NCBI RefSeq assembly: GCF_006345805.1
Contig: NC_043009.1
Location: 25,730,001-25,794,000 of the forward strand
Origin: Octopus sinensis
Taxonomy: Eukaryota
Direction of reading: 5' to 3'
DNA length: 64,000 bases
The position numbers and the translations under genes are program-made. The notes beneath the pieces are model-generated. The model did not search any database and had not been told where the DNA came from. It saw only the letters and a program-made list of their open reading frames with translations. Position 1 is the stretch's first letter; each line of letters begins with the position of its first letter. This document shows, in pieces, positions 2,619 to 51,246 of this stretch.

Positions 2619-2635
2619 ATATATATATAAAGACT

Positions 2636-19452: not shown

Positions 19453-19634
19453 CTCACCCATGGTGTCATGCAGTGGGACTGAACCTGGAACCATGTGGTT
19501 GGGAAGTAAACCTCTTACCACGTAGCCATGCAGACCTTGAATAAAGTCATATGGACTGTTAACCAGTCACAAATAGCTGGATGCAGATGCAAAGTTTTCT
19601 ATGCAGCAGAAACGTGCGTCGAACAAATTTAAAC

Positions 19635-21557: not shown

Positions 21558-22747
21558 CCGTATCTTAACGTGTATAAGGAAACACCCAATTTTTTGTGCT
21601 TAAAATTTGGAAAAAAGGTTTTGTAAGGGATTATAATACTATCCATGTATAAGTAACTCTAGTAATTTTTTAACCTACTTTTGACAAAAAAGGGTCCCTT
21701 ATACATGTTAACCCTTTCGTTACTATATTTCTGACCAAAATACACCCCTTATGTGCTTCAATTAATTTCTAACATAATCATAAATTTAGTCTGGTTTCAT
21801 TAAACAACTATAACTTTTTTATTTATCAATATATTAACGTGAATTTTGGAAGATAATTTAATGAAATGTTCTCGACCAATTCTATACTATAATTTTTGTC
21901 ACAAAGTGACTCTAATTGCAGGTAGATACAGGTAAATTCAACAAAATATAAAATTATTATAATTTTGTTCAAATATCGCTATAGAAAATGGGTTATTAGC
22001 TAATATTCAGTTGGGTATACAACAAAATTTTACGATAGAATTTGTTATTCTGGGTAACTTTCTGATACCCATAATAATAAGACCACTTTCTTTTGCTTTG
22101 TTTACATTCAGTGTAAGGGTTCGTTTCCGCCGTAATGATTTCAAATAGGCTCATTCGAAAAAGTAAAAAGAAATAGTCTAAGGCTTTACTCTCCTGGGAA
22201 AGTCTGTGGCTTGGTCCAGTTTCTTCAGAAAAATCACCAAAAGAAACAGTTTTTAAATTTTCACTCCATTCAGGTGCCAATTCATTTTCTTTATCGCTGT
22301 CGGAGCTCTCGGATTCACTGTTTTCACTTTCGGAAAATGAAACATCAGATTCATTATCAAATACCACATGCTTTTTTTTTTCAGTCATAGAGTTAGATTT
22401 ATCAAGGTCTTCAGTAGAAAATCCTTCGAATTCTGACTCGCTGCTTGATATAATGAAATTCGTATCCATTTTTTGTCAGAATTACAAACTTTGAAAACAC
22501 AATAGGAACAAATTTCAGAAAAAATCTCCCAAAATTCACGGTATTAAAATTACACTTCGATTTTTGTACAAAACTGTAGTTGAACTCTTTACGAAGTATA
22601 ATACGTATTTTCACGAATGTACTAAAGAGATTTGCTCTGATATTCTCATTTAAATATGAATAGGTAAGTTCGGGCGGTTTTCGGCGGTTTGGTCACATTA
22701 ACCAAAATTTTTTTTGGCCGGTTTAGTAACGAAAGGGTTAAATACGG
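21558..22747. mobile_element. pogo-like MITE interrupted in its right TIR by a piggyBac
   Basis: TA-CCGTATCTTAACGTGTATAAGG ... CCTTATACATGTTAA[insert]AATACGG-TA. Confidence 0.7.
21712..22737 (-). mobile_element. Internally deleted piggyBac element with N-terminal transposase fragment
   Basis: TTAA TSDs (21708-21711, 22738-22741); TIRs CCCTTTCGTTACT/AGTAACGAAAGGG; ORF 21996-22469 with acidic N-terminus and ALDYFFLLF...IITAETNPY (PGBD-like). Confidence 0.88.
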
Positions 22748-27491: not shown

Positions 27492-27852
27492 CATGTATCA
27501 AATACGATCCAGTTCCATTGTTTGGATGTCATGGAAAGAAAAGATCAACAGATGTATTCATTCTAAAAGAAAACCTCGGTGGCGTTGCATCACCGAAAGG
27601 TAATTTAAATCCATGCGCTAAAGAATTCAAGCCATCTGCTATGCCAGCATCACTGTATGCCAGTATAGCAGCAACTCAACCAGCTTTGAAACCAAAAGCC
27701 GGTCAGAAAAAGAAGAACAACAGCAGTAGTGTCACAGCTCAAACCAAATCTGACGAAGTTCTTCGGAAGCGAATTCAATTGCTGTTGCAAACAAAAAAAA
27801 TTATTATTTTGATGCGTGGATGTCCTGGGAGCGGAAAGTCTACGTTAGCAAA
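27492..27852 (+). CDS. N4BP2: N4BP2-like exon: PAM2 motif and Walker A
   Basis: ctttgtag acceptor; NLNPCAKEFKP and IIILMRGCPGSGKSTLAK; donor gtaagt, phase 2. Confidence 0.9.
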
Positions 27853-30734
27853 GTAAGTTGTCAAACATTGTCATCGTTTACCCGTAACAACCACCGTGAT
27901 AGCTTTTCATTGCATGTTGTCATGATTAATACTCTTTCTCATTATCGTTAGTTCTAGTAATCTTTTTTTTTAATATAACTTGGCAAAAGTCAGTGTAATT
28001 TTATTTTTAAAAAATCCATTTCATACTCTGATCTGACTGTTCCATTTTTCTTGAATTAATAAGATACATTAAAATGTTGTTTTGAAATGCACAAGATATT
28101 TTTTCATATGTTATAGAAAATGGATTGAGTAAACATTTTATATTGTATCATTTGGTGGAAGAATATATATATATATGGTGGCACTCCATCAGTTACGACG
28201 ACGAGGGTTCCAGTTGATCCGATCAATGGAACAGCCTGCTTTTGAAATTAACATGCAAGTTGCTGAGTACTCCTCAGACGCGTGTACCCTTAACGTAGTT
28301 CTCGGGGAGATTCAGCGTAACACAGAGTGTGACAAGGCTGGCCCTTTGAAATACAGGAACAGCAGAAGCAGAAAGAAAGAGTGAGAGAAAGCTGTGGTGA
28401 AAGAGTACAGCAGGGTTCACCACCACCCACTGCCAGAGCCTCATGGAGCTTTTGGTGTTTTCGCTCAATAAACATTCACAATGCCTGGTCTAGGAATCAA
28501 AACTGCGATCCTACAACCGTGAGTCTTTTGCCCTACCCACTGGGCCATTGCGCCTCCACAAATTATATATATAATTTCAGGAGTATATACAGAAAATAAT
28601 GAAGACAAATTTCATCTTTTTTCAGACACATCTGTATATTTCTGAGATTCCACTAATGTAAATAGAACAAGGGAAAGAAAGTGTATCTTTGAAGGGAGAA
28701 TTTTAGAACTTGATAAAGAGAACTGATGAGGGAGAGAAAAAGACAGTGTGGGAGAATGAAGAAAAGAGAAAGAAGACATAAGTCAAACTATGACTGGCCT
28801 TAAATCTCTTTTATTGTTCTTTTTCCATTTCTTTTTTGTTTTTGTTCTTATTTATTTGAAATTACATTTCAGAAAGCTTCTAGAATGTTTACCAAAGAAT
28901 AAAACAGCAGCCATTTTGTCTACAGATGACTATTTTAAAGATAATCGCAACAATTACTGTTTTTATGTTGAGCGATTATCAGATGCTCATGCCTGGAACC
29001 AGCAGAGAGGTAAATAAAAATATTTCCTCTAGTCTGTGTGTCTGTCTCTCTTTTTTCATTGTTGTATTCCTATTTATGTATGTCTGCCTGTTTATTTATC
29101 TCTCTCACTTGAACCCCCATCAAGCAGGTGTAAACTCCAGCAAGCCAAGTTTGTGAGTCTGTTTTGATTCTCAGTAAGAGAGATGTCTAACTCCATTTAT
29201 GTTACCGATTTACTTAACAAGAAACACCATCATTTCATCTGCTTGAAGATCATGAAAGGGCAAAAGAGCCTAGTCTATAACAGACCAGATTGTTGACCCC
29301 TTGTATGCATTTTAACCCTTTAGCATTGAAACCAGCCATATCCGACCCAGATATTCTACTTGTTTTATGTTGAAGCTATCCAGCTCAAGTGGAGGCGCAT
29401 GGCTTAGTGGTTAAGGTGGCAGCATCACGATCATAAGATTGCGGTTTCGATTCCTGGACTGGGCGACGCGTTGTGTTCTTGAGCAAATCACTTCATTTCA
29501 CGTTGCTCCAGTCTACCCAGCTGGCAAAAATGAGTAACGCTGCGATGGACTGGTTCCCATCCAGCTGGGGAACACATACGCCATTGAAGCCGGGAAACCG
29601 GGCCCATGAGCCTGGCTAGGCTTTAAAAGGGCGCATTTATTTTTATTTATCCAGCTCCGACCTCTCACACCTACCCTATTATGTACATTTAAAAGTAAGC
29701 AATCACCTCTTCAAAATCTCTAAAATACAAGGTAGTTCATGATTAATTTTTAAAAAGGGAATAAATAAGCATCAGATTTGACAGAGTAATGTGAATGCTG
29801 AAAGGTTAATGTATCTCTGTACGTTTTGTGACATTTTTTCCTAGTTCACTTCTCATCTGTAAATTGCTGGAACATTTTGAATGCATTAGGTAGATGATAG
29901 ATAGGTTGTCTGTCATCATTTGTTATGTGATTGTTTATTTGTTCACTTGGGGCTAGCTGTCATTATTCTCTTTCTCTCTCTAAATATCACCATCATCATC
30001 CTTTAATGTCCGCTTTCCATGGTGTCATGGGTTGGATGATTTGACTGAGAATTGGTGAACCAGATGGCTGCACCAGGCTCCAATCTGATCTGGCAGAGTT
30101 TCTACTGCTGGATGCCCTTCCTAACGCCAACCACTTCGAGAGTGTAGTGGGTGCTTTTATGTGCCATCTGCACGAGGGCCAGTCTGGCGGTACTGGCAAA
30201 GGCCACGCTCTAAATGGTGTTTTTTATGTGCCACCTGCACAGGAGTCAGTCCAGCAACACTGGCAACGACCTCACTCGAATGTTTTGTTCACATGCCACC
30301 CGCATAAGCGCCAGTAAGGTGACGCTGGTAACGATCACGCTCAAATGGTGGTTTTTACGTGTCCACCAGCACGTAAATATGTAGACAGAAACTGAAAGAA
30401 ACCTGTTGTATGTATGTATGTATGTGTGTGTGTGTATATATATATCACGTGATCATGTGACCGACCAGTCCATCAGATGTAGTTACACATCGCTCGTCAC
30501 AATGTGTTCGCATTGTTTTAGCCTTTGAATGACGCCACCCCGCTGGCTAAGCGAGCAGGCCAACAGAAGAAAGAGTGGTGAAAGAGTACAGCAGGGATCA
30601 CCACCCCCTGCCGGAGCCTCGTGGAGCTTTTAGGTGTTTTCGCTCAATAAACACTCACAATGCCCGGTCTGGGAATTGAAACTGCGATCCTACGACTGCA
30701 AGTCCGCTGCCCTAACCACTGGGCCATTGTGCTC

Positions 30735-30792
<58 letters not shown>

Positions 30793-33107
30793 CACACACA
30801 CACACACATACATACATACTTTTTTTTATATTAAAGCTGCAGAAACATCTCAAAAAACTGTTTCACATTTCCATTTGTCAGAATCCAGTCTTGATCAGAT
30901 TTGTCTGATGAACGGAAATGTGAAACTCTGAGTAACAATTTTTTGTGATGTTTTTGCAGCTTTAATAAAAAGCAAATCACTCTGCCTTTGGTATTCGAGT
31001 ACTATTTCTTTTCCTCACCTTGTATTGCATTTATATGCTTACTCATGCATGTATGTGTGTGTGTTTGTTTTTGATATCCTGTGGTATTTGTAACTGTTGT
31101 AAATGATTGTCACTATCATACAAAATGTGTCACTCATTTCCAATATTCTGCAAAATCATGTCTGGGTGCGGAGAAATTGGAAAGAGGTGTGGGCTGGTGA
31201 CAGGAAAGGTATTGCAGCTGTAGAAAATCTACCTCAAACTGTCTCGCCCATGCAAGTTTGGAAAAGTGGACTTTAAAATAATGATCACACACATAAAATT
31301 TATTGAATGCCTTTATTAACCAACTTGTCATCTTCTATTGAAAGAACTGAACAGCTGTATAGATGTAAACACAATTTTTTCTTCTTCCTTCTTTCTTTCC
31401 TTCTCTTTTCCATTGACATTCCTTTCAGATACACAGGCACACACACACAGACACACAAAACAAATGCACTCTCTCTCTCTCACTGGACAAAGGTGATGAT
31501 GATAATAAATCCAGACAACTTTTTGAAAAATAACTTTTAATCAAGACCCCCCCCCCCCTCACATTGAGTAGCCACCTGGTTTTGCCCTTTTTAAAGGCCA
31601 AGAATCAACTCATCACTTTCTATTGAAAGAACTGACCAGCTGTATAGATGTTTCTTCTTTCTCTCTTCCTTCTTTCTTTCTCTTTTCCATTGACACTTCT
31701 TTCAGATACACACACACACACACTCTCTCTCTCTCTCCCCATTCCTCACCCTCTTTTACTATCCTATATCTCTCTCCACCCCTACACACTCAATAATACT
31801 ATAAAAAGAGACAAATCCTCCCAAACAAATTCAAATCTGGAGATTCTACCAGAGTAGATGCAAGCGCTAATATATGATTTATAAAAACATGTGACATATT
31901 AAAAATCTGTAAATGTACAACCATCCAGATTTCTGAGTACCTAATTTTTTGTAATATATATATATATATATATAATATATATATATATATGCACACACTA
32001 TATATACACATGATATATATATATATATATATATACATGATGGAAAACTAGCTCAGTAAGGCAGGACGCTACTCCCTGAGAACCCTTTCAGAGCCCCCTA
32101 CCTACATACACAAAGGTGCTAAATTTTAGGGAAAAGAAGGAAGAAATATAACACTGTCCTTAACCGTTTAGCATTTAAACTGGCCAGATCCAGCCTCTCA
32201 CACTTACCTTACATTAAGAAATAATCATCAAAAAATAAACAATCATGTCTTTGAAATCTCACGGCTACATGGTAACACATGGCTAATTCAAATCAATTCT
32301 TTTTCTTGTTTTAGTCCTTTGACTGTGGCCATGCTAGAGCACTGCCTTTAGTTGAACAAATTGACCCCCAGGACATGTTCTTTGTAAGCCTAGTGCTTAT
32401 TCTATTGGTCTCTTTTGCTGAACCGCTAAGGTATGGGGATGTAAACACACCAACATCTGTTGTCAAGTGACGGTGGGGGACAAACACAAACACACACACA
32501 CACGCACATATATGATAGATTTCTTTTAGTTTCCATCTACTAAATCTACTCACAAGGCTGTGGTTGGCCTGAGGCTATAATAGAAGACACTTGCGCAAGG
32601 TACCCTGCAGTGGGACTGAATCTGGAACCATTTCGTTGGGAAGCAAGCTTCTTACCACACAGCCATGCCTGTGAATAAATAAACATTACATTTCACAGAA
32701 ATCTGTATGCCAAAGTGTTAATGCCATTCCCAGTGACATTAACATAACAAATAGAGAGAGAAAAATTCAAAACTATAAACTAAAAACAGACTGCCCTTTT
32801 GGTTTCTAAAATACTCATTTCTTGTTCTGTGAACTCTTCAATTTATCTTCTTGATGCCTTGCTGATATTAATGATGTGTTTCTAATCCCTGGACTTTTCA
32901 ACAGCCCTAAATGCAATGAAAGAGGGAACAGATTTGGTTATTATCGACAACACAAATTTGACCTTATGGGAAATGGAACCCTATGCTAATTATGTGAGTA
33001 TAAATATAATTAGTGCTAATTTTTTTGATGTTTTTTTCTTTTTCTTTGTGAATGTTAAATTGGGTGACCACATGTTGCTGTTAGTTCTCTTTCTCTTTGT
33101 ATGTATG

Positions 33108-33139
<32 letters not shown>

Positions 33140-33208
33140 TGTATGTGTATGTATGTATGTATGTAGTATGTATGTATGTATGTATGTATGTATGTATGTA
33201 TGTATGTA

Positions 33209-33246
<38 letters not shown>

Positions 33247-35027
33247 TGTATATGTAAATATAGGAATGTGTGTGTATATGTATATATTTATATATAGTGA
33301 TTAGACTGCAGTCATGCTGGGGCACTGCCGAGATGAACACCAGGAATCCTAAATAGTAGACCACATTTATATATATAAGATTTACACACATGCATATATA
33401 CATATTTATTTGTATGTATATATGTCATCATCATCATCATCGTTTAACGTCTGCCTTCCATGCTAGCATGGGTTGGATGATTTGACTGTGGACTGGCGAA
33501 CCAGATGGCTGCACTAGGCTCCAATCTGATCTGGCAGAGTTTCTACAGCTGGATGCTCTTCTTAACACCAACCACTCTGAGAGTGTGGTGGGTGCTTTTA
33601 CGTGCCACTGGCATGACGGCCAGTCAGGTGGTACTGGTAACGGCTATGCTCAAATGGTGTTTTTTATGTGCCACCTGCACAGGAGCCAGTTCAGCAGCAC
33701 TGGCAATGACCTCGCTCGAATGTCTTTTCACATGCCACGGCATTTTTACGTGCCACCGACACGGAAGCCAGTAAGCTACTCTGGCAATGATCACACTTGG
33801 ATGGTGCTCTTAGTGCACGGACACCAGTCATCAAATTTGATTTGATTTCAATTTCACTTGCCTCAACAGGTCTTTTCAAGCAGAGTTTAGTGTCCAATAA
33901 AGCAAAGATATGCATAAGTGGGCTGGTTACACCCCTGGCATAGGCCACGGTTTATGGTCTCACTTGGCTTGCTGGGTCTTCCGACGCACTGCATATTTCC
34001 ATAGGTCTCGGTCACTAGTCATTGCCTCAGTGAGGCCTAATGTTCAAAGGTCATGCTTTTGTATGTGGCAGATGCTCAGGAGCAATAAACCCTAAAAAGG
34101 TGCAGAGAACAACTTCTGCCACATTCCAGGGAGTAAAACGAGAAGTAGTTGATAGCCTCCGTTACCTAGGTGACCAAGTCTACCTCTTCCACAGTTTCCC
34201 TCAACTTGCACACCACATCTGATGCTTCTTAGGTCCAACTTTTCTCTCAAGGTACTTACACTCTGTTGAGTATACACACTGACATTACACATCCATATGC
34301 ACACGAGTATACACACTGACATTACACATCCATACTGGCTTCATTCTTTGCGAGCTTATGTACGTCCTCAGCAGTCACGGCCTATTTTCCACTGCCATGT
34401 AGCATGGCTGTTTCTACACATATGTCATACAATCTACCTTTTACTATGAACGAAAGGCCTTTTGTCACCAGCAGAGGTAAGAGCTCTCTGAACTTTGCCC
34501 AGAGTGCACTGTCCCCTGCTACTGACTTGGTCACCTAGGTAACGGAGGCTATCAACTACTTCTCGTTTTACTCCCTGGAATGTGGCAGAAGTTGTTCTCT
34601 GCACCTTTTTAGGGTTTATTGCTCCTGAGCATCTGCCACATACAAAAACTATCTTCTCAGATAGCCTTCCTTTCATATTGTTGCACCTCTTATGTGTCCA
34701 TAGTTTACACTGGGTACATCTTATAGAGTTTCTACCTATGCCTTTTCTACAAATTGAGCAGGGCCATCTACCTGAAGAGATTTGTGGTTTGTTATATGTG
34801 TGTATGTATAAATGTGTGTGTGTATATATATATGTGTGTGTGTGTGTGTGTATATATAAATATAAATCAAAATGAGGGTGAAAAAGTGGATATTAATTTG
34901 ATAACATCAATTTTAACACCAGTAGTCTAGCATATAAAAAACTGAGATTCAGTAAATAGTATTACACACATAAATATAAGAGGGAATTTTTTACCACTAG
35001 TGGTAAAAAAATTCCCTCTTATATTTA

Positions 35028-35072
<45 letters not shown>

Positions 35073-38000
35073 GTTTCCACTTTGCAGGGTGGTTGGTGTT
35101 AGGAAAGATATCCAGCTGTAAAAGTTATGCTAAAACAAACACTGAAGCATGGAAAGCAGACGTTAAACGATGATGATGAAGAAGATGTGTGTGTGTGTGT
35201 GTGTATAAACTTCGTCTATTTATGATGAGGCACATGGTTTTTCTTGAACATTGTTATGGGACAAAAACAGTGACCCAAATGGTAAAATGTTATCAATTAA
35301 TTTATAATTCTTTCAAATTGTCAGGCAAAAGAAAATGGTTATTTTCTTGAAATTGTGGAGCCTAACACAGCATGGAAATTCAAAGCCCGAAAACTAGCTG
35401 CGTAAGTATTTAGAATTATTACATTCAACTTCCCTTTTTCAATATTTGTTTACTATTGTATGTAGAATATTGCTGACAGTTAATTTTCAAGCTGCTGGGA
35501 TTGATGAAATAATTAGCGTTAAAACCTGACTAATTCTTTTGATGCCAAGCCACCTGAGACTGCTTTTGGTCCTATTTACTCTTTACTCTTTTACTTGTTT
35601 CAGTCATTTGACTGTGGCCTTGCTGGAGCACTGCCTTTAGTCAACCAAATCAACCCCAGGATTTATTCTTTGTAAGCCTAGTACTTATTCTATCTGTCAT
35701 TTTTGGCGAACTGCTAAGTTACAGGAATGTAAACACACCAGCACCTGTTGTCTGTTGTCAAGAGGTGTTGGGGGGACAAACACAGACACACACACACATA
35801 TATATATATACACACATATATACAACGGGCTTCTTTCAGTTTCCGTCTACCAAATCCACTCACAAGGCTTTGGTCGGTCCGAGGCTATAGTAGAAGACAC
35901 TTGCCCAAGGTGCCACACTGTGGGACTAAACCCAGAGCCATGTGGTTCGTTAGCAAGCTACTCACCACACAGCCACTCCTATACCTCTTATATAAGCTTC
36001 CTGTCTAAAGTGATCTTAATTAAAACCTTCCACAAAAATTTCATGTTAATTTATGTTCCAAACACCATTTTAATAACAACTATTTTTTGTTTTTAGTAAA
36101 TTTGTCATTTTCAAAATAAATTGAAACAAAAGGGGTTAAAGTAATCGAAATTAAAATCTTCCATCAAGATTTTGTATCACTTTATGTACCAAACACCAGC
36201 TTAATAATGACCATTATTGTTTAAAATTTCTGAATGAAGTGAGAAACATCTGTTGCAATAGAATGGCCATCTGTATCATGTAGATGGCTTAAAGTTGCCA
36301 TAACGATTGTCAGGTTGTAATGAAAGTGCTTTTTAATAGTTGAGCAGATATTGTTAAACAAGATTTAATATAGCTATATCTCTATTTTGATGCTTAATCA
36401 CATCCACATAAGTCAGCCACTACTTTTACTAACATTATATAAAAACATTATACATGGACACCGCTCCAGGCTGATCATTTATCATCTAACAAAAGACACA
36501 TTTAGCATATTATGCTTTGAGTTTCATAGAAAGGTCAAAGCAGGTGCAGTAACTATATTGTGGCTATCATTTTTTACCTATAAACCCCATTAACCCTTCT
36601 GTTACCAACCTGGCTGAAACCGGCCTTCGCTCTGAGTACAAATGTCTTGTCTTCATAAATTTTGAATTAAAATCTTCCGCCAAACCTTAGTCACAATTTA
36701 TGTTCCTAACACTAGCTGAATGATAACTAAGTTATTTTACTAAATTCTTTGTTATATTTAAAGTACGTGAAAGAAACACAGAGCATCTCAAAATAAATAC
36801 AGTAACACAGTAACAAAAGAGTTAAAAATATATAATAGAGAAACAATTCTTAACCCTTTTAATACCATCCTGGCTGAAGCCGTCTCTGGTTCTGTAGTAC
36901 AAATGTCTTGTTTTCATAAATTTTGAATTAATATCTCCCACCAAACCTTAGTCACAATTTATGTTCCTAACACTAGCTGAATGATAACTAAGTTATTTTA
37001 CTTATTTCTTTGTTGTATTTAAAATTAATTGAAAGAAATGGCATCTCAAAATAAATACAGTAACGAAAGGGTTAACTTGTATAGGTTGAACTATGCAAAA
37101 TGTATGAGAAAGAAATCTAGCTGTGTTTTGTAATAAATACTTCTAAAGCAACATTTTTTCATGGTTCCTTAATATACTATTGTGGGTCCCTAATTTTTTA
37201 TTTTGCTTGCATGGACCCCTAAAAATCTTATATGGATCACAAATGGTCATATGGTACCGGGTTATGAACCACTTACCCAGAGCACTTGTGTGGTTGATGC
37301 AGCTTGTAGGAGATGGGTTCTTTTTTGCCTGTTTCAGAAATGGGAATGGTTTCAGTGAAGCATATGCTAAGAAAGGGTCACTTAAGGCAGCGAGCTGGCA
37401 GAAACATTAGCATGCCGGGCAAAATGCTTAGCGGTATTTCGTCTGCCATTACGTTCTGAGTTCAAATTCCGCCGAGGTCGACTTTGCCTTTCATCCTTTT
37501 GGGGTCGATAAATAAAGTACCAGTTACGCACTGGGGTTGATGTAATTGACTTAATCCGTTTGTGTGTCCTTGTTTGTCCCCTCTATGTTTAGCCCCTAGT
37601 GGGCAATAAAGAAATAAGAAAGGGTCACTTGAGTGGACGTGGCACAGAGGCACTGGAAGCAGGTTTTTTCAGAAAATTTTCCCATTGCAGTTAGTTTTTA
37701 GCCATCATGCAAATAGTGTCCTTCATTTCCAGTCTTCTGTGAGAACATGTTCAGTCATGGAGAAATATTAGCTTAACTGGAAACAGATGAGGGTTAGCAA
37801 CAGGAAGGGCATCCAGCTGTAGAAAATTCACCTCAAAAAATTCTGTCTCACTTATGCAAGCATAGAAAAGTGAATGATAAGTGACTGTGATGATGATGAC
37901 ATAACTTGATTGTTTTTTTTTTTTAAAGTTTTTTAATTAAATTTTTGTTTTTTGTTTTAATTTTGTTCCTGTTTGTTTTGGTTTATTGTTCAGTCGAAAC

Positions 38001-41000
38001 ACTCATGGTGTCGGCTATGAAAAGATTGTCGACATGTTGAAGAAATACGAAGAAGTGACAGTCCACCAACTCTTAAGAAATAAAAAGGCACCGAGAACAA
38101 GGTAAGTGTATCAATGATCACCACTACAACTACTGCCAGCACTACAACTGCCACTATGACCGCTACCACTACTACTGTTAAGTCGGGTACTTTATCAAGT
38201 CTCTTTTGCTGAACTGCTCAGTGTTGGGCAGTGGTGACAAACACTATGACACACATTGGCACTCCATTGGTTCTGATGATGACAGTTCCAGTTGATCCGA
38301 TCGACAGAACAGCTTCAAGTTAATGTGCAAGTGGCAGAGTACTCCACAGACGGTGAACCTGTAACATAGTTCTCAGGGAGAGAGTGGACAACAGACATTA
38401 AATGATGATGAAGATGATGATGAAGATGATGATGAATGTGACAAGGTTGGCCCTTGGAATTACTGGTACAACTCGTTTTTGCCAGCTGAGTGGATTGCAG
38501 CAATGTAAAATAAAGTGTCTTGCTCAAGGTCTCAATGCATCATTGGGAATTGAACTCATGACCGTATGATCATGAGCCAAATACCCTAACCACTAAGCCA
38601 CACACATCATCATCTTCATCATCATTTAATGTCCGTTTTCCATGCTGGCATGGGTTGGACGGTTTGACTGAGGAGGCTGCACCAGGCCCCAATCTGATCT
38701 GGCAAGGTTTTGACAGCTGGATGTCCTTCTTAACACCAACCGCTCTGAGAGTGTAGTGGGAGCTTTTTATGTGCTACTGGCACAGGGGCCAGTCAGGCAG
38801 CACTGGCATGGGCCATGGCAACAATTTTACTTGACTCAACAGGTCTTCTCAAGCACAGCATATTGCCCAACGATTGAAGGGTACTTTAAATGGGCCAGTT
38901 ATGTGAGAATACCCACATATATGATAGAGGCTACCTCAAAGTTTCTGTTTACCAAATTCACTGACAAGGCATTGGTTGGCCCAGGCTATAAGATGGCATG
39001 CAATGGGACTGAACCTGAAACCATATGGTTACAAAGTAACCCTCTTAACCACACAGTCATTTATTTTGAAGAATCAGTTCCTGGGACAGGATTTCACTTT
39101 TGCAACTTCAAAATTTTTTGGGTTCGCAATCTTTTATAACCCTTTGGCATTCAAATTATTCCGTCAAAGTTAATGCTACTCTATTCATATTATTTTGAAT
39201 TCATCATATATCATCTCATAGCATCAAGATTTTGGTGATGTGAGTGTTTATATTTAGAATGACATTGCAGGGTAAGAGTGAGAGGTCGGATCTGGCCAGT
39301 TTGAACGTAAAACAAGTAAAATATTTGGGGCAGATGTGGCCTGTTCAAATGCTAATGGCTTACCGCTTTTTTGTATTTGTTTGTTTGTTCTCTTTAGCGC
39401 TCCTGTGATAAATGCTGAGACGAGATCAGTGCAGAAGGAAAGTAAAAGAAACTATAAAAGGAATCGGAAAAGACACCGCTCTGCCAATAACGGTGAAAAT
39501 AAATCGAACAAGAACCATGGCATCAGTGAAAGCAGCGAAACAACCTGTGATGGAAATCTAGACGATGGAATGTATATGAGTCTATCATCACCTCTCAGAC
39601 CAGATTCTTGGGGATCAGATTCTAACTGGGATGAACCACAGCTGCCGAAATTGGGAAGAGTTGAAAATTTATCTGATTCTGAATGTACGGATTCCTCTCA
39701 GAGTAATTCTGTTGAACCATCTTCAGATGAAGAGGACATGGAGCATTTGGCATCATCTTTTAGTTTCGTGGATCTGGGTGAGAATGCCATAAGTTCGGTT
39801 ACAGATTCTGCAGATGTGTGTAGTAGTTTAGAGATGCTAGCATTGAACTGTTTATTAAAAGATGGCATGGATGAAAATTTAGATGTAGCTGACAGAGCCA
39901 TATTAGAAGCATGTCAGAAGAAGGATGATTTCTTGCAACAAATGTTCCAGAAAAGATCTCAAGCTGATGAAATAACACAAAGTGGGACAGATTTGGAACA
40001 GTCTGGGACAGACATTGCTCCTCAGATATCTGACAATTCGGAAGGGGAGCCATGTTTGTCAGACTCGGTTTCAGATGAAGATGGTGCATTTTATATTAAT
40101 TATTCCATAAAAATGGAATTTTTGACGTTATTAGCGCAGTTGTTTGGACCACTTGAAGAACTTGAAAATAAAGGTTAGTTAATTTCATCTTCATTTCTTC
40201 ATTTGTGTGTGTGTCTTTGTTTTCTTTTTTGTGTGAGCTGTTTTGTATTCATTATTTTCCATGTGTATCTGGATTGGGTAAGGTTTTGTATGGAAGCATT
40301 CCATTCTAAAGCTGAATCATCATCGTTGTTTAACACTCATTCTCCATGCTGGAATGGTTTGGGCAGTTTGACAGGATCTAGAAGGTCCATGCACTGCATT
40401 GTGTTCCATTCTCTAGTTTGGTATGGTTTCTACAGCTACATGCCCTTCACAACACCAACCATTTTACAGCTGTACAAGCTTCCATGAAAATATGTCTGGA
40501 CTAAAGGAAAATATCAATATTACCTTGTTTGGAAACAGGTGAGAATTGGTGACAGGGAGAGCATCCAACTGTAGAGAATTCTGTCTCAACAGATCTTATG
40601 TGACTCGTGCACACATAGAAAAGGAGTTATTAAAAGAAAGGCAATGAGGATGTATTTGTATATATACTTGATGTTTGTGTGTGATTAGTTTTTATCACAT
40701 GATTTATTCAAACAGTTGTAATATTATAATTTTGTAATATTTTCTTTTAAACAGTGCCTGATAAAGAAGGGTTTATTAATACGAAACTATCATTAGAGCA
40801 TCTGTCTTCTTTACATAAGACTTTATCAGAAATTTGTCAATCAAAAAAAGGTAAGAACAATTCTATTTCACCTTTATATTTATTGTTTCTGAAGTGTGTG
40901 TGTGCTGTTTTCATAGTTGGTTTAGCTAATATGATAGGAGTGTTGCACAACCAGGTAATGTTTCAGAACAGTTTAGAAGCATCATGATCTGTCCATGACC

Positions 41001-41868
41001 AACACTCTTGACTCTCCTTCAATTCATTTAACTGTAAATAGGTAGTATGATGGATGTACAGTTTACTGATTCGATACCAATAATAATAATAATAACAACA
41101 ACAAGATCACTCAGAGAGTGCAAACCTCTGCCAAGGTAATACCAACATCCTCTCAACAATTAGCCAGAGAGGATTTTTAAAATGAGAATATCTGAAATAA
41201 AGTTGACTGCTCTCACAAATGAGTTTACTAAAAATGAACCCGACCGCTCTCAAGAATTAAGTAAAATAACCGGAAAATTAATCCAGAACCCTTGTCCAGT
41301 ACCAAAATGTAATTAGTTTGTGCCAGTCATGAGGCCAAACATTCCAAAAAGTTTCATGTGAATCCATCCAGTGGTTCTTGAGATATCTTGTCCACAGACA
41401 AACAAACACGACTGAAAACAATATCTCTGCCTCCACTAAAGCGGAGGTAATAATCCTTTCAATTTTGGTGCAGGGCTTAAAATTTTGATGGGAGAGGGCT
41501 GTTCATTACAGTGAATCTTGTACTCGGCTGGTACTTATTTTTATCAACCCTGAGAGGATGAAAGAAAAAGTTGACTTCCACAGGATTTGAACTTGAAATG
41601 TGAAGAGTGGGAAGAAATGCTGCTAAGCATTTGGTCTGACATGCTCATGAATCTGCCTGCAATAATAATAATAATAATTCTTTCTACTAAAGGCGCAAGG
41701 CCTGAAATTTTGTGGGAGGGGACTAGTCAATTACATCAACCTTTATCAACCCCAAAAGGATGAAAGGCAAAGTTGACCTTGGCAGAATTTGAACATAGAA
41801 CGTAAAGACAGATGAAATAACACTAAGCATTTTTCCCGATGTGCTAACAGTTCTGCCAGCTCATCCCC

Positions 41869-41900
<32 letters not shown>

Positions 41901-44900
41901 CCTTTCTTCTACCGACACAAGGCCTGGATTTTGTGGGGAGTGGGACAGTCAATCACATCAACTCCAGTATGCAACTGGTACATTTTCATCATCCCCAAAA
42001 GGATGACAGGCAAAGTCAACCTCAGTGGAATTTGAACATAGAACATAAGGACAGATGAGATGCCACTAAGCAGTTTTCCCAAAGTACTAATGGTTCTGCC
42101 AGCTCACCACCATAATAATAAGAAGAATGGTTTCAAATTTTGGCACAAGGCTGACAGTATAGGAGTAGGGTGGGGGTAGGTGGTGGAGTAAATCAATTAC
42201 ATCAAAGCCAGTGCTCAACTTGGTATTTACTTTATCAACCCCCAAAATGAAGAAAGACTGTCAACTTCAGCAGAATTTGAACTTGGAACTTAAAGAGAGA
42301 TGGAATGCCGCTAACCATTTTGCCTGGTGTGCTAATGATTCTGTCAGCTTGCAACCTTCATGATGATCATAACGGAGGAGGGGATCAGTACGCAATGGAT
42401 ACTTAATTTATTGACCCCGAAAGGACAAAGGCATAGTCAACCTCGGCAGAATAATAATCCTTTCTACTATAGGCAGAAGGCCCAAAATCTTTGGGGAGGG
42501 TCCAGTCAATTAGATTTACCCCACTACGCAACTGGTACTTAATTTATCGATCCCAAAAGGACAAAAGGCAAAGTTGATTTTGGCGGAATTTGAACTCAGA
42601 ACATGAAGACAGAGGAAATACCGCTAAGCATTTCGCCCAGTGTGGTAATCATTTTACCAGCTCACAGCCTTAATAAAATATTAAATATCAGTCATGTACT
42701 GGGGTTGATGAGATCAATTTACCCCTTCCCCTCAGATTTCTGACCTTGTCTCAGTATTTCAAACTATGTACTAGTTATTGTTTTTTTTTGTCTTTCTCAG
42801 AAGCTAAAAATAGACGAAGTGATAATTTACCACTTTCGGAGTTTGTGGATGATACAACAGACTTCCAGGAAGTGCCAAACATACCATTATCATCATCATC
42901 TGCCACACCTGACTCACTTTCGCAAATCATGAGGGAACAACAGGAGGGTCAGATTGAACTCGAACTAAAGGTTTGTTTTGTTTTGTTTTTTGTTTATTCT
43001 GTTAATTGCATTTTATTTATGCCAAAACCTTGTGGGTAGAATTGGTTGACAGAAATCAAAAAGAAGCCCACTGTGTGTATGTGTGTGTGTGATTGTATCA
43101 CCTGTATTGACCAGACTATTAGATGTTATACATCACTGATCACAATGCACTTCCAATTCTTAATATTTACCCCTTTCGTTACTGTATTTATTTTGAGATG
43201 CTCTGTAGTTCTTTCAATTGATTTTAAATATAACAAAGAATTTAATAAAATAACTTAGTTATCATTAAGCCAGTGTTAGGAACATATATTGTGACTAAGG
43301 TTTAATGAAAGATTTTAATTCAAAGCTTATGAAAACAAGACATTTGTACCACAGAATCAGAGTCGGTTTCAGGTGGGTTGGTAACGAAAAGGTTAACACA
43401 CACACTGGTTCAGTTTCCATTCATTTACTTCTTTATTTTTTTCTAAAATTTTCGTTGTGTCTTGCAACCTTTTCAGACTATTGAAAAGGTTGCAAGATGT
43501 AATGAAAATTTTAGAAAAAGATAAAGAAGTATTTACCTGCCATTCTGAGTTCAAACCCAACAAGGAATCACTTTGTCATAGTCTTCTGGGGCTGTTAAAA
43601 TAAATGTTGATCAAATACTGGCATTGATTTAATTAATTATTCCCAGCCATGAAAATCTGTGTGTGTTTGTGTGTGTGTTAGCCTCATCCTTTTCATCATG
43701 TCCTCCTTCTTTGCTGGCTTGGACTGGACTGGACTGTTTGACAAGCTTTTTTTGGTCAGGGGACTGCGTTGTGCTCCAATGTCTGTTTTCATATGGCTTC
43801 TATAGCTGAATGCCCATTCTAATGGCCACCACTTTAACCCTTCAGAAATTAAATATATCTGGCCCAAATTTTCTACCTGTTTTATGTTCAAACCAGCCAG
43901 ATCCAGCCTCTCACACCTACCCTACAATGTCCCACTAAAAGTAAATAATCACATCATCACGATCTCAAATCTTAAAAACTAATGCATGATTAATTCAAAA
44001 CAGTGTGAATAAATATTCATTACATTTGACAGAATAAACTGGATGCTAAATGGTTAAAGAAAGTACTAAGTGCCTTTTTTTTGTGATACCGGAGACCCCC
44101 TTCAGTCACAAATGACCATGGGATTGCACCTAGAAAGTTACCCTCTGAGGCACAAGTCCAGGCAAGGTTGTTTATGGAAGACCAGTAGTTGCCCATGCAT
44201 ACCAGCCTCCCCTCCCCACACCACCAGTGTTATCCAAGGGAAAGGCAAAGTCCAATAGAGCTTGGCACCTGTGACGTCGCAACTCATTTCTGCAGCTGAG
44301 TGAACTGGAGCAACATGAAATAAAGTGTCTTGCTCAAGAACACAACACGCAGCTTGGTTCGGGATTTGAACTCACAACCTCACGACCGTAAGATTGACAC
44401 TCTAACCACTGAGCCCTGTGCCTTTTGTGATACCAGTACTACACAAATGAGGTTGCTGTGTAGCTTTCAAGACAGAGATTGTCTTTAACTGAGAGAAAGA
44501 GGCACTTCTTTTTTTAGGTGATGAAAGGTTAAAGTATGACAGAAGGAGCCAAATCAGGTTTCTTGCAGTAGAAGAGATACATGGAGTCTAAGGGTACAAA
44601 ACATTTGCTTTAAAGTGTTCAGCTTTATTTATATCCCAACATCAATCCAAAATTAATTCAATAATCTTTAAAGATAAAGTTTAATTAGTTATCTAATCTG
44701 CTGTTTCCAAGATACCAGATTAATTGATGTGAACTAAAGTTACTTTATTTTAATAAATCTTGCAAATTTTTTATTGTTTTCAAAATTAATTAAAACATCA
44801 TCATCATCATCATTTAACGTCCGTTTTCCATGCTGGCATGGGTTGGACGGTTCAACTGGGGTCTGGAAAGCCGGGAGGCTGCACCAGGCCCCAATCTGAT

Positions 44901-47900
44901 ATGGCAGTGTTTCTACAGCTGGATGCCCTTCCTAATGCCAACCACTCCGAGAGTGTAGTGGGTGCTTTTTGTGTTCCACTGGCACAGGGGCCAGAAGAGC
45001 TGGCATCGACCACGATCAGATGGTGCTTTTTACGTGCCACCAGCATGGAAGCCAGTCAAAGTGGCACTGGCATCGGCCAAGTTTGGATGGTGCATTTTAC
45101 GTGTTACTGGCATGGGGCTTACAACTACAATTTCCATTTGATTTGATATTGATGTTGATGTACTTGACTCAATAGGTCTCCTCAAGCATGTCATGTCGCT
45201 CTACAATCCAAGGTACTTTTGAGTGGGCTGGTTATGTGACACTGGTGTAGGTTACAACTGTGGACTCACTTTATTTGCTGGGTCTTCTCAGTCACAGCGT
45301 ACCTCCAGAGGTCTTGGTCTTTTGTCATTGCCTCTGTGAGGGCCCAACGTTCAAAGGTCATGCTTCACCACCTCATCTCGTGTCTTCCTGGGTCTACCTC
45401 TACCTCAGATTCCACCTAAGAATAATATTTGTTTGTTAAGAATATGATCATAAAATGTTAAATAAAATAAAATTTCATATAAAACAATAATTTACAAAAA
45501 AATTCTGTATTCCAAATAAAAATATTGGGGAAGACTTTTTTGTGTGTGAGTGTCTGCATATGATGAAATGGAAAAAGATAGGGATGGAAACGCTAATGTT
45601 ACTTTATTCTGATGAGACTAACTGGAGTCAGCTGTCATATGCCAGAATCCAAGAAACCTGTGGTAGAGGGTGGGGAATGGCAGAGTAGTATTAATTCTGT
45701 TTCCTGTTCCCTCCCTTGATTTTAGGAACACTGTTGTTTTTGCTCATGTTGTTATCGTACCTTGTAGCTGTATTATTCAGTTACTATTGGAAACTTGTAC
45801 TACACTAGGAACCCTTCTTTTGAATATATTGCTGTTGTATAAGGTTGAGTTTATGGAAAACAGAAAGAATTGGTGAGGAACACAAGACAAAAAACCCCAA
45901 GAAACAAAATGGAGGTCTCTTGGTTTGGATGTCTATACATTATATATACATCCACACAAATACATTCAAGAGCACTTGTGTTAGAAAATTACTTAATAAA
46001 TAAAATAATTGTTGCTATTTTCATTTTCAGCTTCAGAGAAATGATCCAGTTACTGTGGGCAAACTGCGGAAGCTTTGTTCCGAGTTTCCTGGTTATGATC
46101 CCAACATCATTGAAATCATTTTTCAGGAGAATGAGTGAGTATTTTGTTATTGGAGATTCCTAGTTGAAAGATGGGTTGTGGTAGGATTTGGTCTTTGACC
46201 ACATGGTCACAGTAGTGTTGTTGTTGATGGTCATGGCTGGAATGCTTTTCATCATAGGTCTGCTTGATGAAGGTAGGCTGAAGGCTAAACTGAAAGAAAA
46301 ACAAATGGCCGAGTGTCTTTGATTATTGGTCTACATGATCAGGTTAAAAAGCAATAACAAAATCACATGATGGTCACTGTTGGAACACCTTTGATCACAG
46401 GCCTGCTGAAGGAGGGTAAGTCTTGGCCTAAAAATATTGGGTTAGTCAGGGATGAATTGCTTGTGGCCATAGGTTCACTTCATCAGGACTGACCTGAGAT
46501 TAAACAGCAACAACAAAAAACCCCAGTAAATTAATTAAAATATGCAGAGTCTTGATCAAACTGTCTCTTCCATTAAATATACATTCTATAGTCATTTTAC
46601 CTACTGGCATATATTCTGGCATATAAGTTGATGTATATAGTGTAAACATGTAGTGCAAACATTTAAACATCTTCACTATCTTTCCAAAACCTGATGCATT
46701 TCATATGGAATTTTTGTTCCCCCAAAGTTGTTTTGGTGTAAATCTTGGTTTGAAATATTCAACTTGTATTCTGGAAAATATGATAAAATCCTCTTAATCA
46801 AGAATTCACCCATTGATATCCTTTAATTACAGCTCTCTATACATTCTATAGTTGTTGTATCTGTATCTCTCCCTCCCTCTCTCTTCCAGTTACAATTACA
46901 CAACAACTCTTGCTTTCTTAAATGGTGTCCCAGATAAGACAGGCTTGGATAATAAAGTATTTTCAGATTCACCACAGCAGTGTGTTGTAAGACGAACGGT
47001 AAGTTGTTTATGCACATGTATATAATATATACAGCAGGGTGTAAAAGTAGGTTGTTCGTTCCTTCTTGAGCCATGCCTGGCTCATGAGGGCCAGTTTCCT
47101 GGTTTCCGTGGCGTATAGGTTCCCCACCTGGATGGGACGTCGGCCCATCACAGGCGAGCTGCAAGATGCAGGAGGAAAGAGTGAGAGAAAGTTGTGGCGT
47201 AAGAGTCAGCAGAAGTTCACCATTATCTTCTGCCGGAGCCACGTGGAGCTTAGGTGTTTCGCTCATAAACACACACATCACCTGGTCTGAGATTTGAACC
47301 CGTAATCCCTCGACCGCTAGTCTGCTGCTCTAACCACTAGGCCATGTGTTTCCACAAAAGTAAGTATATAGTTATGAAAAAAGAAAACATGTACAATACT
47401 CCTTTATTTTTATCAAAAAGATTAAAAGTTATGATCAATGTTTTATTATGATTAATGACACTGAAAATATCAAAAAAGAGGCTGATTTTTTATTATTTTC
47501 ATAAAAGTAAATGAGCATTGTGCTTTCTTTTTTCATGAACGTGGCCAATGCCAGTATTCCTCTGACTGGCTCCCGTGCCGGTGACACATAAAAAGCACCC
47601 ACTATACTCTTGGAGTTGTTGGTGCTATGAAGGACATCCAGCTGTAGAAACATTGCCAGATCAGATTGGAACCTGGTGCAGCCGCTGGCTCTCCAGACCT
47701 TTTTACATGTCAAACCATCCAGCCCATGCTGGCATGGAAAATGGACGTTAAGCGATGGTGATGATGATGGTAACTGTATACCTACTTTTGCACCCATCAT
47801 ACCATCATCATCATCATGAGTGTATGTATGATAGTCTGTCATCATCATCGTTTAACGTCTGCCTTCCATGCTAGCATGGGTGGGACGTCTTTACACAAAA

Positions 47901-49685: not shown

Positions 49686-51204
49686 TGTAGCTATTCTTTT
49701 TCGTTATTTATATTTTCTTTATTTTTATATTTCAGAATACACCAAAAATCTATTCTAGAAACCGTTTCCTCAACTGGATCCAGGTTCCTAAAGTAGATTA
49801 TCAAAACCAAATTGCCTTTTATAAAAAGCGTCTTTCTGATTCTACTGTTAAGAAACACCTGTACAACACACAATGTTTATCGTTAGCCAAAGAATATAAT
49901 CAGTCGCAAGTAAGAAATACTGTTTCCTCTATCCTTCTTTAATGGTGGTCATTTCATTTTTTTTTTTTATTGTTGTTAGTTTTTCATTTTGAGCATCAAA
50001 TATCTCAGGGAACAGGATTTACACCAGAGTATTCAGCATCATAGGTCTGCCTTACAATGTGCACCCTTTTATTCCAGCCCTTCAATGTGTACCCTGCCTT
50101 CTCTCCCTTAGATGTAAACCCCATCTTCTCCCAGCCCAGCAGTGTGTGCCTCCTCCTGCCACCCTACAATATGCTCCCCCTTTTTCCAGCCTTTCTCATG
50201 AGCCTTCTTTTTTCATCCCTGCAATGTGTGTTCTTTTCTCCCTGCACTACAATGGGCACCCCCTCCTTCTCCCAGCCCTGCAATAAAATCTTCTCCTCCC
50301 ACATTTTTTCTACATCTTTCAGATTTCACCCTCCTGTGCTGGAGTTATTTTAAACCCCTCTTTCTTTTAATGTATATATAGTCCATTCTGCTGGCTGGTT
50401 GGTGTCAGGAAGGGCATCCAGCTGTAAAAATCCTGCCAACACAGTCACAGAAGTCTGGTGCAGGCTTCAGCTTGGCCGGCTCTTGTGATACCATTCCAAC
50501 CATGGTAGCATGCAAGGCTTTCCATGCTATCATGGGTGGGATGGCATTTGCACCAGAAGCTCCTCTACAAACATTTCAGAGTGTTTGGGTATCAATCTGA
50601 GGACAGTGCAACCTGAGGACATGTACTCAGAGTGATAAAAATCAAACATCCAGTCAACATGTGGTGTTTGGAGTGATCACTAGTGATGGCGATGTTATGC
50701 CTCCATTCATCTTCCCACACGGCCTCAGACTCAACAAGAGGCCTACATCAAGTGCCTGGAGAAGGTAGTTCTGCCCTGGGTCGAGAGGGTGGATGCTGGA
50801 AGGCTATATGTTTGGCAACAGGACTCTATCCCATGCCATACAAGCAGAAAACACATCACCCTAACATTTGGCCACCTAACTCCCCTCTTGATTATTATGT
50901 GTGGGCGCAGTTGAGTGAGAGACCAACCAACTCCTTGTTACACCAAAGATGAACTGAAGGCAAGGCTTATGGCAGCATTCATGAATATAAACAAGGAGAC
51001 TGTTCAGAAGAGTTGCAGGAGATTCCGAAGTCGTTTGGAGGCTGTAGTTGAAGCCAATGGCGATTTTATTGAATAAATTTATTCTTTAGTTTCTCAAAAT
51101 ATTTTTGTTTAATTTTGGTAAATCTATCTGTTAAAATGAGATGACAGTGTTATTTTCATTTTTTGCGTAATTTAGATGAAAGTTTATTCACCGCATCCTG
51201 TATG

Positions 51205-51246
<42 letters not shown>

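What the first reader, a model, noticed from the sequence alone, without database searches (positions are those of the whole stretch)
27599..27634. PAM2 (PABP-binding) motif in an animal N4BP2/NONU-1-type nuclease
Seen: GNLNPCAKEFKP matches the PAM2 consensus xxLNxxAxEFxP in a disordered region just N-terminal to the kinase. Known: NONU-1/Cue2/N4BP2 Smr proteins are linked to cleavage of mRNA at stalled ribosomes (no-go/nonstop decay). PAM2 binds the MLLE domain of PABP, and PAM2+Smr is known from plant CID7-type proteins. I do not recall it being described for the animal kinase-CUE-Smr family. Inference: the nuclease may be recruited directly to poly(A)/PABP. The motif precedes the exon's first in-frame Met (27641), which argues for an upstream coding exon.
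Basis: partly seen in the sequence, partly recalled or inferred. Interest (0 to 1): 0.7.

Follow-up and report, generated by a model that had tools for sequence, protein, structure and literature searches.

The report
Poly(A)-docking motif in animal N4BP2 nuclease
The octopus version of an enzyme family that cuts mRNA at jammed ribosomes carries a short peptide matching the docking site for poly(A)-binding protein, and relatives from clams and worms to frogs keep that peptide or a variant of it, so it likely helps bring the enzyme to mRNA tails (binding untested).

Summary
Confirmed and wider than claimed. Window 27599-27634 reads GNLNPCAKEFKP in a spliced exon of a 918-aa Octopus kinase-CUE-Smr (N4BP2/NONU-1-type) gene. 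Three upstream start exons fit its frame. All seven published PAM2 binding positions are optimal. The motif lies in a predicted disordered arm and is its most conserved spot (9/10 identical in a distant cephalopod-like orthologue, flanks 16-23%). A pre-set PAM2 pattern occurs upstream of the kinase in 11 of 12 lophotrochozoan and 7 of 7 rotifer orthologues (0.08 and 0.04 expected). A Trp-for-Leu variant that Pfam misses sits at a fixed place in 35 of 44 vertebrate-clade rows (0.013 expected; pattern chosen after seeing it). It is absent from cnidarians (0/3), N4BP2L2 (0/18) and most insects (1/33). Likely role: tethering the nuclease to PABP-coated poly(A), next to ubiquitin sensing by CUE. 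Binding is not tested, and human and C. elegans were not examined. PAM2+Smr is known from plant CID7; my searches found no paper on it for animal N4BP2.

The parts
27599..27634 (+). PAM2 motif GNLNPCAKEFKP (P0002 111-122: L113, N114, P115, A117, E119, F120, P122 = PAM2 positions 3, 4, 5, 7, 9, 10, 12)
27492..27852 (+). Coding exon (aa 75-194, phase-1 acceptor) holding the PAM2, the disordered linker and the kinase Walker A
27641..27643 (+). Internal Met125; start of the PAM2-less record O. bimaculoides X4; five out-of-frame ATGs precede it inside the exon
19601..19613 (+). Candidate alternative start exon (MQQK, phase-1 GT donor) matching the N-terminus of O. bimaculoides X3; 4-residue match only, no reads laid here
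28873..38101 (+). Four exons (28873-29009, 32905-32993, 35325-35401, 37994-38101) completing the polynucleotide-kinase-type P-loop domain (aa about 175-325)
39398..42970 (+). Three exons of the middle region (aa 332-679; largely disordered, with helices and a small alpha/beta unit at 564-630)
46031..46998 (+). Two exons encoding the single detectable CUE-like domain (aa 681-730)
49736..51606 (+). Two exons encoding a predicted helical hairpin (aa 772-831) at the place of DUF1771/N-ext; sequence too diverged for profile detection
53222..57597 (+). Three exons encoding the Smr domain (aa 837-918; DLH and GKG kept) and the stop codon

Best explanation
This is a conserved PAM2 peptide in the predicted-disordered N-terminal arm of the octopus N4BP2/NONU-1-type protein, and it likely docks on the MLLE domain of cytoplasmic poly(A)-binding protein, which would tether the Smr nuclease to poly(A)-bearing mRNA. 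Shown: the motif, its reading frame and splicing, its match at all seven published binding positions, its conservation across several phyla, and intact PABP genes with the KITGMLLE signature in the same genome. Inferred from PAM2-MLLE structures: L113 enters the helix 2/3 pocket and F120 the helix 3/5 pocket. Inferred from family function: PABP tethering concentrates the enzyme where ribosomes run into poly(A) (non-stop or prematurely polyadenylated mRNA), the CUE reads ribosomal ubiquitin, the Smr DxH cuts and the kinase phosphorylates the 5'-OH end. The tether would be an accessory route, since most insects lack it.
For: Exact fit to the structure-based definition (hydrophobic 3, N/S 4, P/V 5, A7, E9, F10, P12; PMC2854688 passages). 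The only PDB hit of the 32-aa peptide is the PAIP2 PAM2 of 1JGN (E 0.23, weak). pLDDT<50 over 1-113 and 121-152, with only 114-120 rising above 50. 9/10 identity in the core against unnamed orthologue P0011, versus 25/110 and 8/49 in the flanks; P0011 passes the Pfam cut-off (20.9 bits). Pre-set pattern upstream of the kinase in 11/12 lophotrochozoan and 7/7 rotifer rows versus 0.08 and 0.04 in shuffles; the strict pattern occurs downstream in 0/12 and 0/7. The vertebrate variant keeps N4 38/39, A7 34/39, F10 38/39, P12 36/39. Glomeromycete CCCH-Smr proteins and one unnamed plant-like Smr protein also carry PAM2, as does plant CID7. Precedent: MKRN1 reaches poly(A) through PAM2-PABP in ribosome quality control. 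Human N4BP2 depletion stabilises a non-stop reporter, and its recruitment to collided ribosomes was reported as ZNF598-independent and unexplained.
Against: The octopus motif is under the Pfam cut-off (15.9 < 20); only 1 of 22 animal proteins scanned passed it. Absent in 32/33 insect-clade rows, 3/3 cnidarian rows and the sea urchin Lytechinus. Trp at position 3 is outside the published definition (Leu, sometimes Pro or Phe), and loss of that Leu cost Paip2 three orders of magnitude in affinity, so the vertebrate variant may bind weakly or bind something else. The cephalopod protein is fast-evolving (long branch) and lacks one CUE. UBR5 also has an MLLE domain (candidate in this genome). None of the 9 papers listed for N4BP2+PABPC1 or the 9 for N4BP2+interactome+PABP announces such an interaction in its title or abstract start (listings seen, three of these papers also searched for passages).
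Confidence: 0.72

Rival explanations
1. The PAM2 is real but its working partner is the MLLE domain of the HECT ligase UBR5, so that it controls the nuclease's ubiquitination or turnover rather than its mRNA targeting.
For: Human MLLE domains discriminate between ligands, and UBR5 bound the MKRN1 PAM2-like peptide more strongly than PABPC1 did (PMC11572963 passages). A split, UBR5-like MLLE exon pair exists at G000:C3:6429283 (the name UBR5 is my recall).
Against: The octopus motif is the canonical type that binds PABPC1 in solved structures; PABP is far more abundant (established knowledge); the family acts on non-stop mRNA.
Confidence: 0.1
2. The motif binds PABP, but for a job apart from stalled-ribosome cleavage, such as general mRNP or granule residence, deadenylation-linked decay, or RNA-end repair by the kinase; the cephalopod Smr may be weak.
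For: The cephalopod Smr loop and DUF1771 are diverged: Ser after GxG is kept in 127 of 132 rows but is Asn in octopus, and no DUF1771 profile match was found. Nuclease activity of mammalian N4BP2 was still unproven in a 2025 review.
Against: DLH and GKG are kept, and R402K had no effect in yeast Cue2. The motif is kept equally in orthologues with canonical Smr.
Confidence: 0.13
3. A chance or repeatedly re-evolved look-alike with no conserved MLLE binding; the vertebrate Trp motif is an unrelated site.
For: Short motifs arise easily; the distance to the kinase ranges from 56 to 386 residues among invertebrates; lineages are related and so not independent; the Trp pattern was set after seeing the data.
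Against: Enrichment is over 100-fold against shuffles with a pre-set pattern. The Trp form was first picked up by a matrix trained only on spiralian motifs. In vertebrates and in 7 lophotrochozoan rows the motif is followed by the same second motif, F-x-[TAVM]-P, which points to one inherited module.
Confidence: 0.05

Closest known systems
N4BP2 / NONU-1 (animal PNK-CUE-CUE-Smr family; bioRxiv 10.1101/674358) and yeast Cue2 (PMC6598757)
   Same: PNK-type kinase, CUE-like domain, C-terminal Smr with DxH and GxG; best PDB hits are the N4BP2 Smr structures and polynucleotide kinase.
   Different: The described architecture lists a chordate basic stretch, kinase, two CUE, N-ext and Smr, and no PAM2 (figure S3C not visible). 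The cephalopod form is 918 aa, has one detectable CUE and a diverged N-ext.
Plant class C1 CID proteins (Arabidopsis CID7; PMC4574140)
   Same: PAM2 + CUE + DUF1771 + Smr in one chain, predicted PABP partner.
   Different: No kinase among its listed domains; the paper says class C orthologues were previously identified only in land plants and calls the Smr function an enigma. The animal protein was not considered.
MKRN1 (PAM2-bearing RING ligase in ribosome quality control; 10.1101/516005)
   Same: PAM2-dependent recruitment of a quality-control factor to PABP at poly(A).
   Different: MKRN1 is a ubiquitin ligase that stalls ribosomes; this is a nuclease-kinase. MKRN1's PAM2 departs from the consensus, whereas the octopus one is canonical.
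Canonical PAM2 ligands PAIP2, eRF3, PAN3, Tob (PF07145; PDB 1JGN; PMC2854688)
   Same: Same spacing and all seven contact positions.
   Different: Host protein class; the vertebrate N4BP2 variant has Trp at position 3 and the bdelloid rotifer variant has Trp at position 10.

Membership tests
PAM2 motif (MLLE ligand) | Hydrophobic 3, N/S 4, P/V 5, A7, F10, usually E9 and P12 | tested here: met
   L113 N114 P115 A117 E119 F120 P122 against the definition in PMC2854688
PAM2 motif (MLLE ligand) | Lies in a disordered, accessible region | tested here: met
   AlphaFold2 pLDDT<50 over 1-113 and 121-152, no secondary structure before 156 (a prediction)
PAM2 motif (MLLE ligand) | Conserved in orthologues above its flanks | tested here: met
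   9/10 versus 16-23% in the flanks; 11/12 and 7/7 rows versus 0.08 and 0.04 expected
PAM2 motif (MLLE ligand) | Translated in frame | tested here: met
   7 of 8 Octopus records include it; upstream exons join in frame without a stop; junction into 27492 inferred, not displayed
PAM2 motif (MLLE ligand) | Physical binding to an MLLE domain, lost on F10A | not testable with these tools
Pfam PF07145 entry | Score at or above the curated cut-off of 20 bits | tested here: not met
   Octopus 15.9; orthologue P0011 20.9 passes, Mytilus 18.0, Lingula 15.8, Owenia 15.1. Not filed as a curated Pfam hit.
N4BP2/NONU-1 family | PNK-clade P-loop kinase | tested here: met
   AAA_33 E 8.5e-19 at 180-315; polynucleotide kinase 1LY1 E 4e-5
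N4BP2/NONU-1 family | Smr domain with DxH and GxG | tested here: met
   Smr 27.9 bits > 25.7; VDLH and ITGKG
N4BP2/NONU-1 family | Two CUE domains | tested here: not met
   Profiles built from 129 homologue rows find one CUE-like domain (681-730, 39 bits) and no second. Filed as a reduced N4BP2-type variant, not a canonical member.
N4BP2/NONU-1 family | N-ext/DUF1771 before Smr | tested here: inconclusive
   No profile match; confident helical hairpin 772-831 at that place
N4BP2/NONU-1 family | Orthology to N4BP2 | tested here: inconclusive
   Only intact gene of this kind found in G000 under a strict first look; the other close hits are broken intronless fragments and one is a distant kinase at 33% identity. 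The Pfam Smr search of G000 found nothing, not even this gene. In the FastTree tree the cephalopods form a long branch apart from other molluscs.
N4BP2/NONU-1 family | mRNA cleavage at stalled ribosomes | not testable with these tools
   Shown for Cue2 and NONU-1, not for any mollusc protein
Plant class C1 CID (CID7) | PAM2-CUE-DUF1771-Smr without a kinase, land plants | tested here: not met
   The octopus protein has the kinase and is animal

The most novel reading that the evidence does not exclude
PAM2-PABP docking is an ancestral, overlooked recruitment arm of the animal no-go/non-stop endonuclease: canonical in spiralians, hidden in vertebrates as a new Trp-3 PAM2 class (W-N-x-x-A-P-E-F-x-P followed by F-x-T-P-V), and paralleled in plant CID7 and glomeromycete CCCH-Smr proteins. 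It would explain how N4BP2 reaches ribosomes stalled on poly(A) without ZNF598.
Probability: 0.4. Interest if true: 0.8.

Novelty: new variant of a known kind. Interest (0 to 1): 0.62.

Why it matters
How the animal Cue2/NONU-1 homologue N4BP2 finds its substrates is open: it is needed for decay of a human non-stop reporter, yet reaches collided ribosomes without ZNF598. A conserved PABP-docking motif gives a one-residue test (F10A) of a ubiquitin-independent route. It also links the animal enzyme with the plant CID7 proteins of unknown function, and proposes a Trp-3 PAM2 variant that the Pfam model did not report in the vertebrate proteins scanned.

Tried and rejected
Complex prediction of peptide with octopus MLLE: not available, so there is no result either way. 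No run is on record as RNA; splicing is read from the contigs' GT-AG joints. The IQ-TREE run did not finish; the FastTree tree serves only for grouping rows, not for the order of gains and losses. A first greedy exon map failed and was replaced. Pfam Smr search of the own genome gave 0 matches, a false negative caused by introns. Rejected: that the motif is 5' UTR; that vertebrates simply lack it (first reading, overturned); that the octopus Smr is dead because it has GKG (R402K is tolerated in Cue2). A second regex column for an 'R402 equivalent' was mis-aimed and is not used. ELM-type hits downstream of the kinase (Hyla P0032, P0118, Mytilus, P0214) were treated as background. N4BP2 appeared in the MKRN1 paper's supplements only in ubiquitin-site and proteome tables (2 of 6 files, one cut when stored): uninformative. 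Earlier-findings searches returned nothing on this gene or motif. Human N4BP2 and C. elegans NONU-1 were not identified among the fetched full-length rows and were not examined.

Full report

Observation. Bases 27599-27634 on the + strand read GNLNPCAKEFKP. The exon piece is 100% identical to P0002, Octopus sinensis LOC115218429, 918 aa. Fifteen GT-AG exons between 27492 and 57597 translate exactly to residues 75-918. Contigs of 4 of 4 laid runs splice the first four of these exons; three contigs begin exactly at 27492 and one carries 226 letters more upstream. The runs are labelled RNA only by guess, but the joints are spliced. Residues 1-74 lie in two exons about 47.8 kb before the motif exon. 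Joined in a script they give P0002 1-194 without a stop, and there is an in-frame stop before the ATG. Two of 4 runs splice those two exons and run 30 letters past the second; I infer that these letters are the start of the motif exon, but no table showed them. Two further start exons with phase-1 GT donors match other isoform records: one 1.4 kb before the window (11 of 11 residues) and one at 19601-19613 (4 residues, weak). Seven of 8 Octopus records hold the motif; O. bimaculoides X4 starts at Met 27641 and lacks it. Five out-of-frame ATGs precede that Met inside the exon, which makes it a poor scanning start (inference).

Is it a PAM2? The structure-based definition has a hydrophobic residue at 3, N/S at 4, P/V at 5, A7, preferred E9, F10 and P12 (PMC2854688, passages). 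The octopus peptide has L, N, P, A, E, F, P. Its only PDB hit at E<=10 is the PAIP2 PAM2 peptide of 1JGN (E 0.23, weak). Pfam PAM2 gives 15.9 bits, under the cut-off of 20. The model puts residues 1-113 and 121-152 under pLDDT 50, with the motif core just above. In shuffles of the 172 upstream residues the recalled ELM-type pattern appears in 0.3%. The genome holds two intronless PABP genes with the KITGMLLE signature.

Conservation. I fetched homologues, kept 132 non-redundant kinase+Smr rows and grouped them by a FastTree tree and source names. Eight rows were left out of the counts: seven with 0-41 residues upstream of the kinase and one multi-kinase row (P0101). Against P0011, an unnamed orthologue whose cluster groups with Octopus and Argonauta (support 100) at 35% overall identity, the core is 9/10 identical while the flanks are 25/110 and 8/49; it is the best 10-residue window of the arm. 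P0011 passes the Pfam cut-off (20.9 bits), the only one of 22 proteins scanned to do so; Mytilus, Lingula and Owenia score 15-18. The ELM-type pattern, fixed before any orthologue was seen, lies upstream of the kinase in 11 of 12 lophotrochozoan rows (0.08 expected; the miss has only 138 upstream residues) and 7 of 7 bdelloid rotifer rows (0.04 expected; these have Trp at position 10). Named carriers are Patella, Batillaria, Nucella, Saccostrea, Mytilus, Pecten, Lingula, Owenia, Adineta and Rotaria. Three more named carriers without a detected Smr (Solemya, Lineus, Tubulanus) are not an unbiased count, since two were looked up because they had the motif. The same pattern gave 0/3 cnidarians, 0/3 invertebrate deuterostomes, 0/44 vertebrate-clade rows, 1/33 insect-clade rows, 1/18 crustacean-and-other rows, 1/6 unplaced rows and 0/18 N4BP2L2. 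Related rows are not independent; the signal rests on about six spiralian lineages.

A hidden variant. A position matrix trained only on the spiralian motifs then found near-matches: Acanthaster RSMNVAAPAFVPR, Branchiostoma SKLSVDVPEFVPK, W[VI]LAPEFV in 5 of 7 rows of the Portunus/Armadillidium clade, and a Trp form in vertebrates. Lytechinus has none. The pattern W[ND]xx[AS]xxFxP, chosen after seeing this, occurs upstream in 35 of 44 vertebrate-clade rows (0.013 expected), downstream in 0 of 44, and in 0 of 18 N4BP2L2. Thirty-nine of 44 have W[ND]x5[FY] 55-110 residues before the kinase, with N4 38, P5 17, A7 34, E9 15, F10 38 and P12 36: PAM2 spacing with Trp for Leu. Pfam reported no PAM2 in the two vertebrate proteins scanned. 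The rows include named frogs and fish-, shark-, bird- and reptile-like sequences; none of the 20 vertebrate rows tested had the sheep fragment among its three best matches, and human was not examined. A second motif, F-x-[TAVM]-P, is found upstream of the kinase in 43 of 44 vertebrate rows (1.28 expected) and 9 of 15 lophotrochozoan rows (0.42 expected) (pattern also set after seeing it). It follows the PAM2 except in cephalopods, where it precedes it. The shared pair suggests one inherited module in the bilaterian ancestor, lost in most insects (inference; not tested on a rooted tree). Outside animals, of 12 Smr proteins picked for a Pfam scan, four have PAM2 hits: Geosiphon (29.9 bits, two copies), two Ambispora (21.6, 17.9) and an unnamed plant-like protein (18.6). 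These were picked partly for having the motif. Plant CID7 has PAM2, CUE, DUF1771 and SMR (PMC4574140, passages).

The host protein. Kinase (180-315) and Smr (840-903) pass Pfam cut-offs and match the N4BP2 Smr and polynucleotide kinase structures. The family description lists kinase, two CUE, N-ext and Smr with catalytic DxH (10.1101/674358, passages and section 11). Octopus keeps DLH and GKG; in yeast Cue2, R402 belongs to the GXG motif and R402K had no effect (PMC11806357 and PMC6598757, passages). Custom profiles find one CUE-like domain (681-730) and no DUF1771, though a confident helical hairpin sits at 772-831. It is therefore a reduced, fast-evolving N4BP2-type protein, probably the orthologue: no other intact copy was seen, but that search was strict and the tree places cephalopods on a long branch.

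Mechanism. Most likely (0.72) the peptide binds PABP's MLLE and tethers the enzyme to poly(A)-coated mRNA, where ribosomes stall on non-stop transcripts; CUE would add ubiquitin sensing, Smr would cut and the kinase would phosphorylate the new 5' end. The motif, frame, conservation and partner genes are shown; binding and every later step are inferred. MKRN1 is a precedent for PAM2-dependent delivery of a quality-control factor (10.1101/516005, passages). Human N4BP2 depletion stabilises a non-stop reporter (10.1101/2022.04.28.489582, passages), had no effect on a signal-peptide reporter (PMC13084044, passages), and its recruitment to collided ribosomes was unchanged without ZNF598, which the authors leave unexplained (PMC7486125, passages). 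Rivals: UBR5 as partner (0.10; PMC11572963, passages), PABP binding for another purpose (0.13), chance or convergence (0.05). The Trp-3 variant is the least secure part, because the position-3 Leu is a major affinity determinant.

Novelty. Searches of the held library found 0 papers for PAM2+N4BP2, NONU-1+PAM2 and SMR+PAM2+endonuclease, and one, the plant CID paper, for PAM2+'Smr domain'. The NONU-1 preprint's only 'pab' hit is a reference. Most subscription papers are not searched; the 2004 PAM2 survey and the NONU-1 architecture figure were not seen, and bioRxiv supplements are closed. PAM2 motifs and PAM2+Smr fusions are known kinds; a PAM2 in the animal kinase-CUE-Smr family, and its vertebrate Trp form, appear undescribed. 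Verdict: new variant of a known kind, interest 0.62.

Noticed in passing
G000:C5:130038193-130052087 (loci L012-L018), - strand: A tandem array of about 25 MLLE (PF00658) matches at a period of about 273 bases, in open frames of up to 685 aa, some copies broken; about 63-73% identical to the MLLE of the intronless PABP on C23. Possibly a poly-MLLE sponge gene or a decaying repeat.
   Followed up: partly
G000:C23:14774984 (L021:811-2739) and G000:C9:95981736 (L019:268-2250): Two intronless full-length PABP reading frames (643 and 661 aa open frames); the C9 copy is divergent (MLLE 46% identical to C23).
   Followed up: partly
window -20.2 kb (L004:1660-1671 joined to 2231-2248; P0002 57-61) and orthologues: A second conserved short motif, F-x-[TAVM]-P-[VKIQ], accompanies the PAM2 (43/44 vertebrate, 9/15 lophotrochozoan rows). 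It resembles the FxxP docking motif of PP4 phosphatase (recalled, from no call); order is swapped in cephalopods.
   Followed up: partly
L009:4911-5190 (C13) and L010:1582-1822 (C16): Intronless fragments of this gene's kinase exons with stops and frameshifts: processed pseudogenes.
   Followed up: partly
P0029, P0052, P0059, P0073, P0074, P0078, P0093 (bdelloid rotifers): All seven rotifer rows have Trp at PAM2 position 10 (LNP[ED]AAEW[VI]P), like the LARP4 PAM2w type (name recalled).
   Followed up: no
P0099 (Lycorma delicatula), P0100: N4BP2-type proteins of about 2,300 aa with several kinase-like repeats.
   Followed up: no
window 27493-27603: Out-of-frame 36-codon ORF starting at the second base of the PAM2 exon and ending inside the motif; it would act as an upstream ORF in any transcript that starts at Met 27641.
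   Followed up: no
window 8945-9403 (-), 21996-22475 (-), 2631-3038 (+), 60964-61314 (-): Transposon-like remnants by eye: mariner-type transposase, piggyBac-like N-terminus, LINE reverse-transcriptase end, integrase fragment (names recalled, not tested).
   Followed up: no
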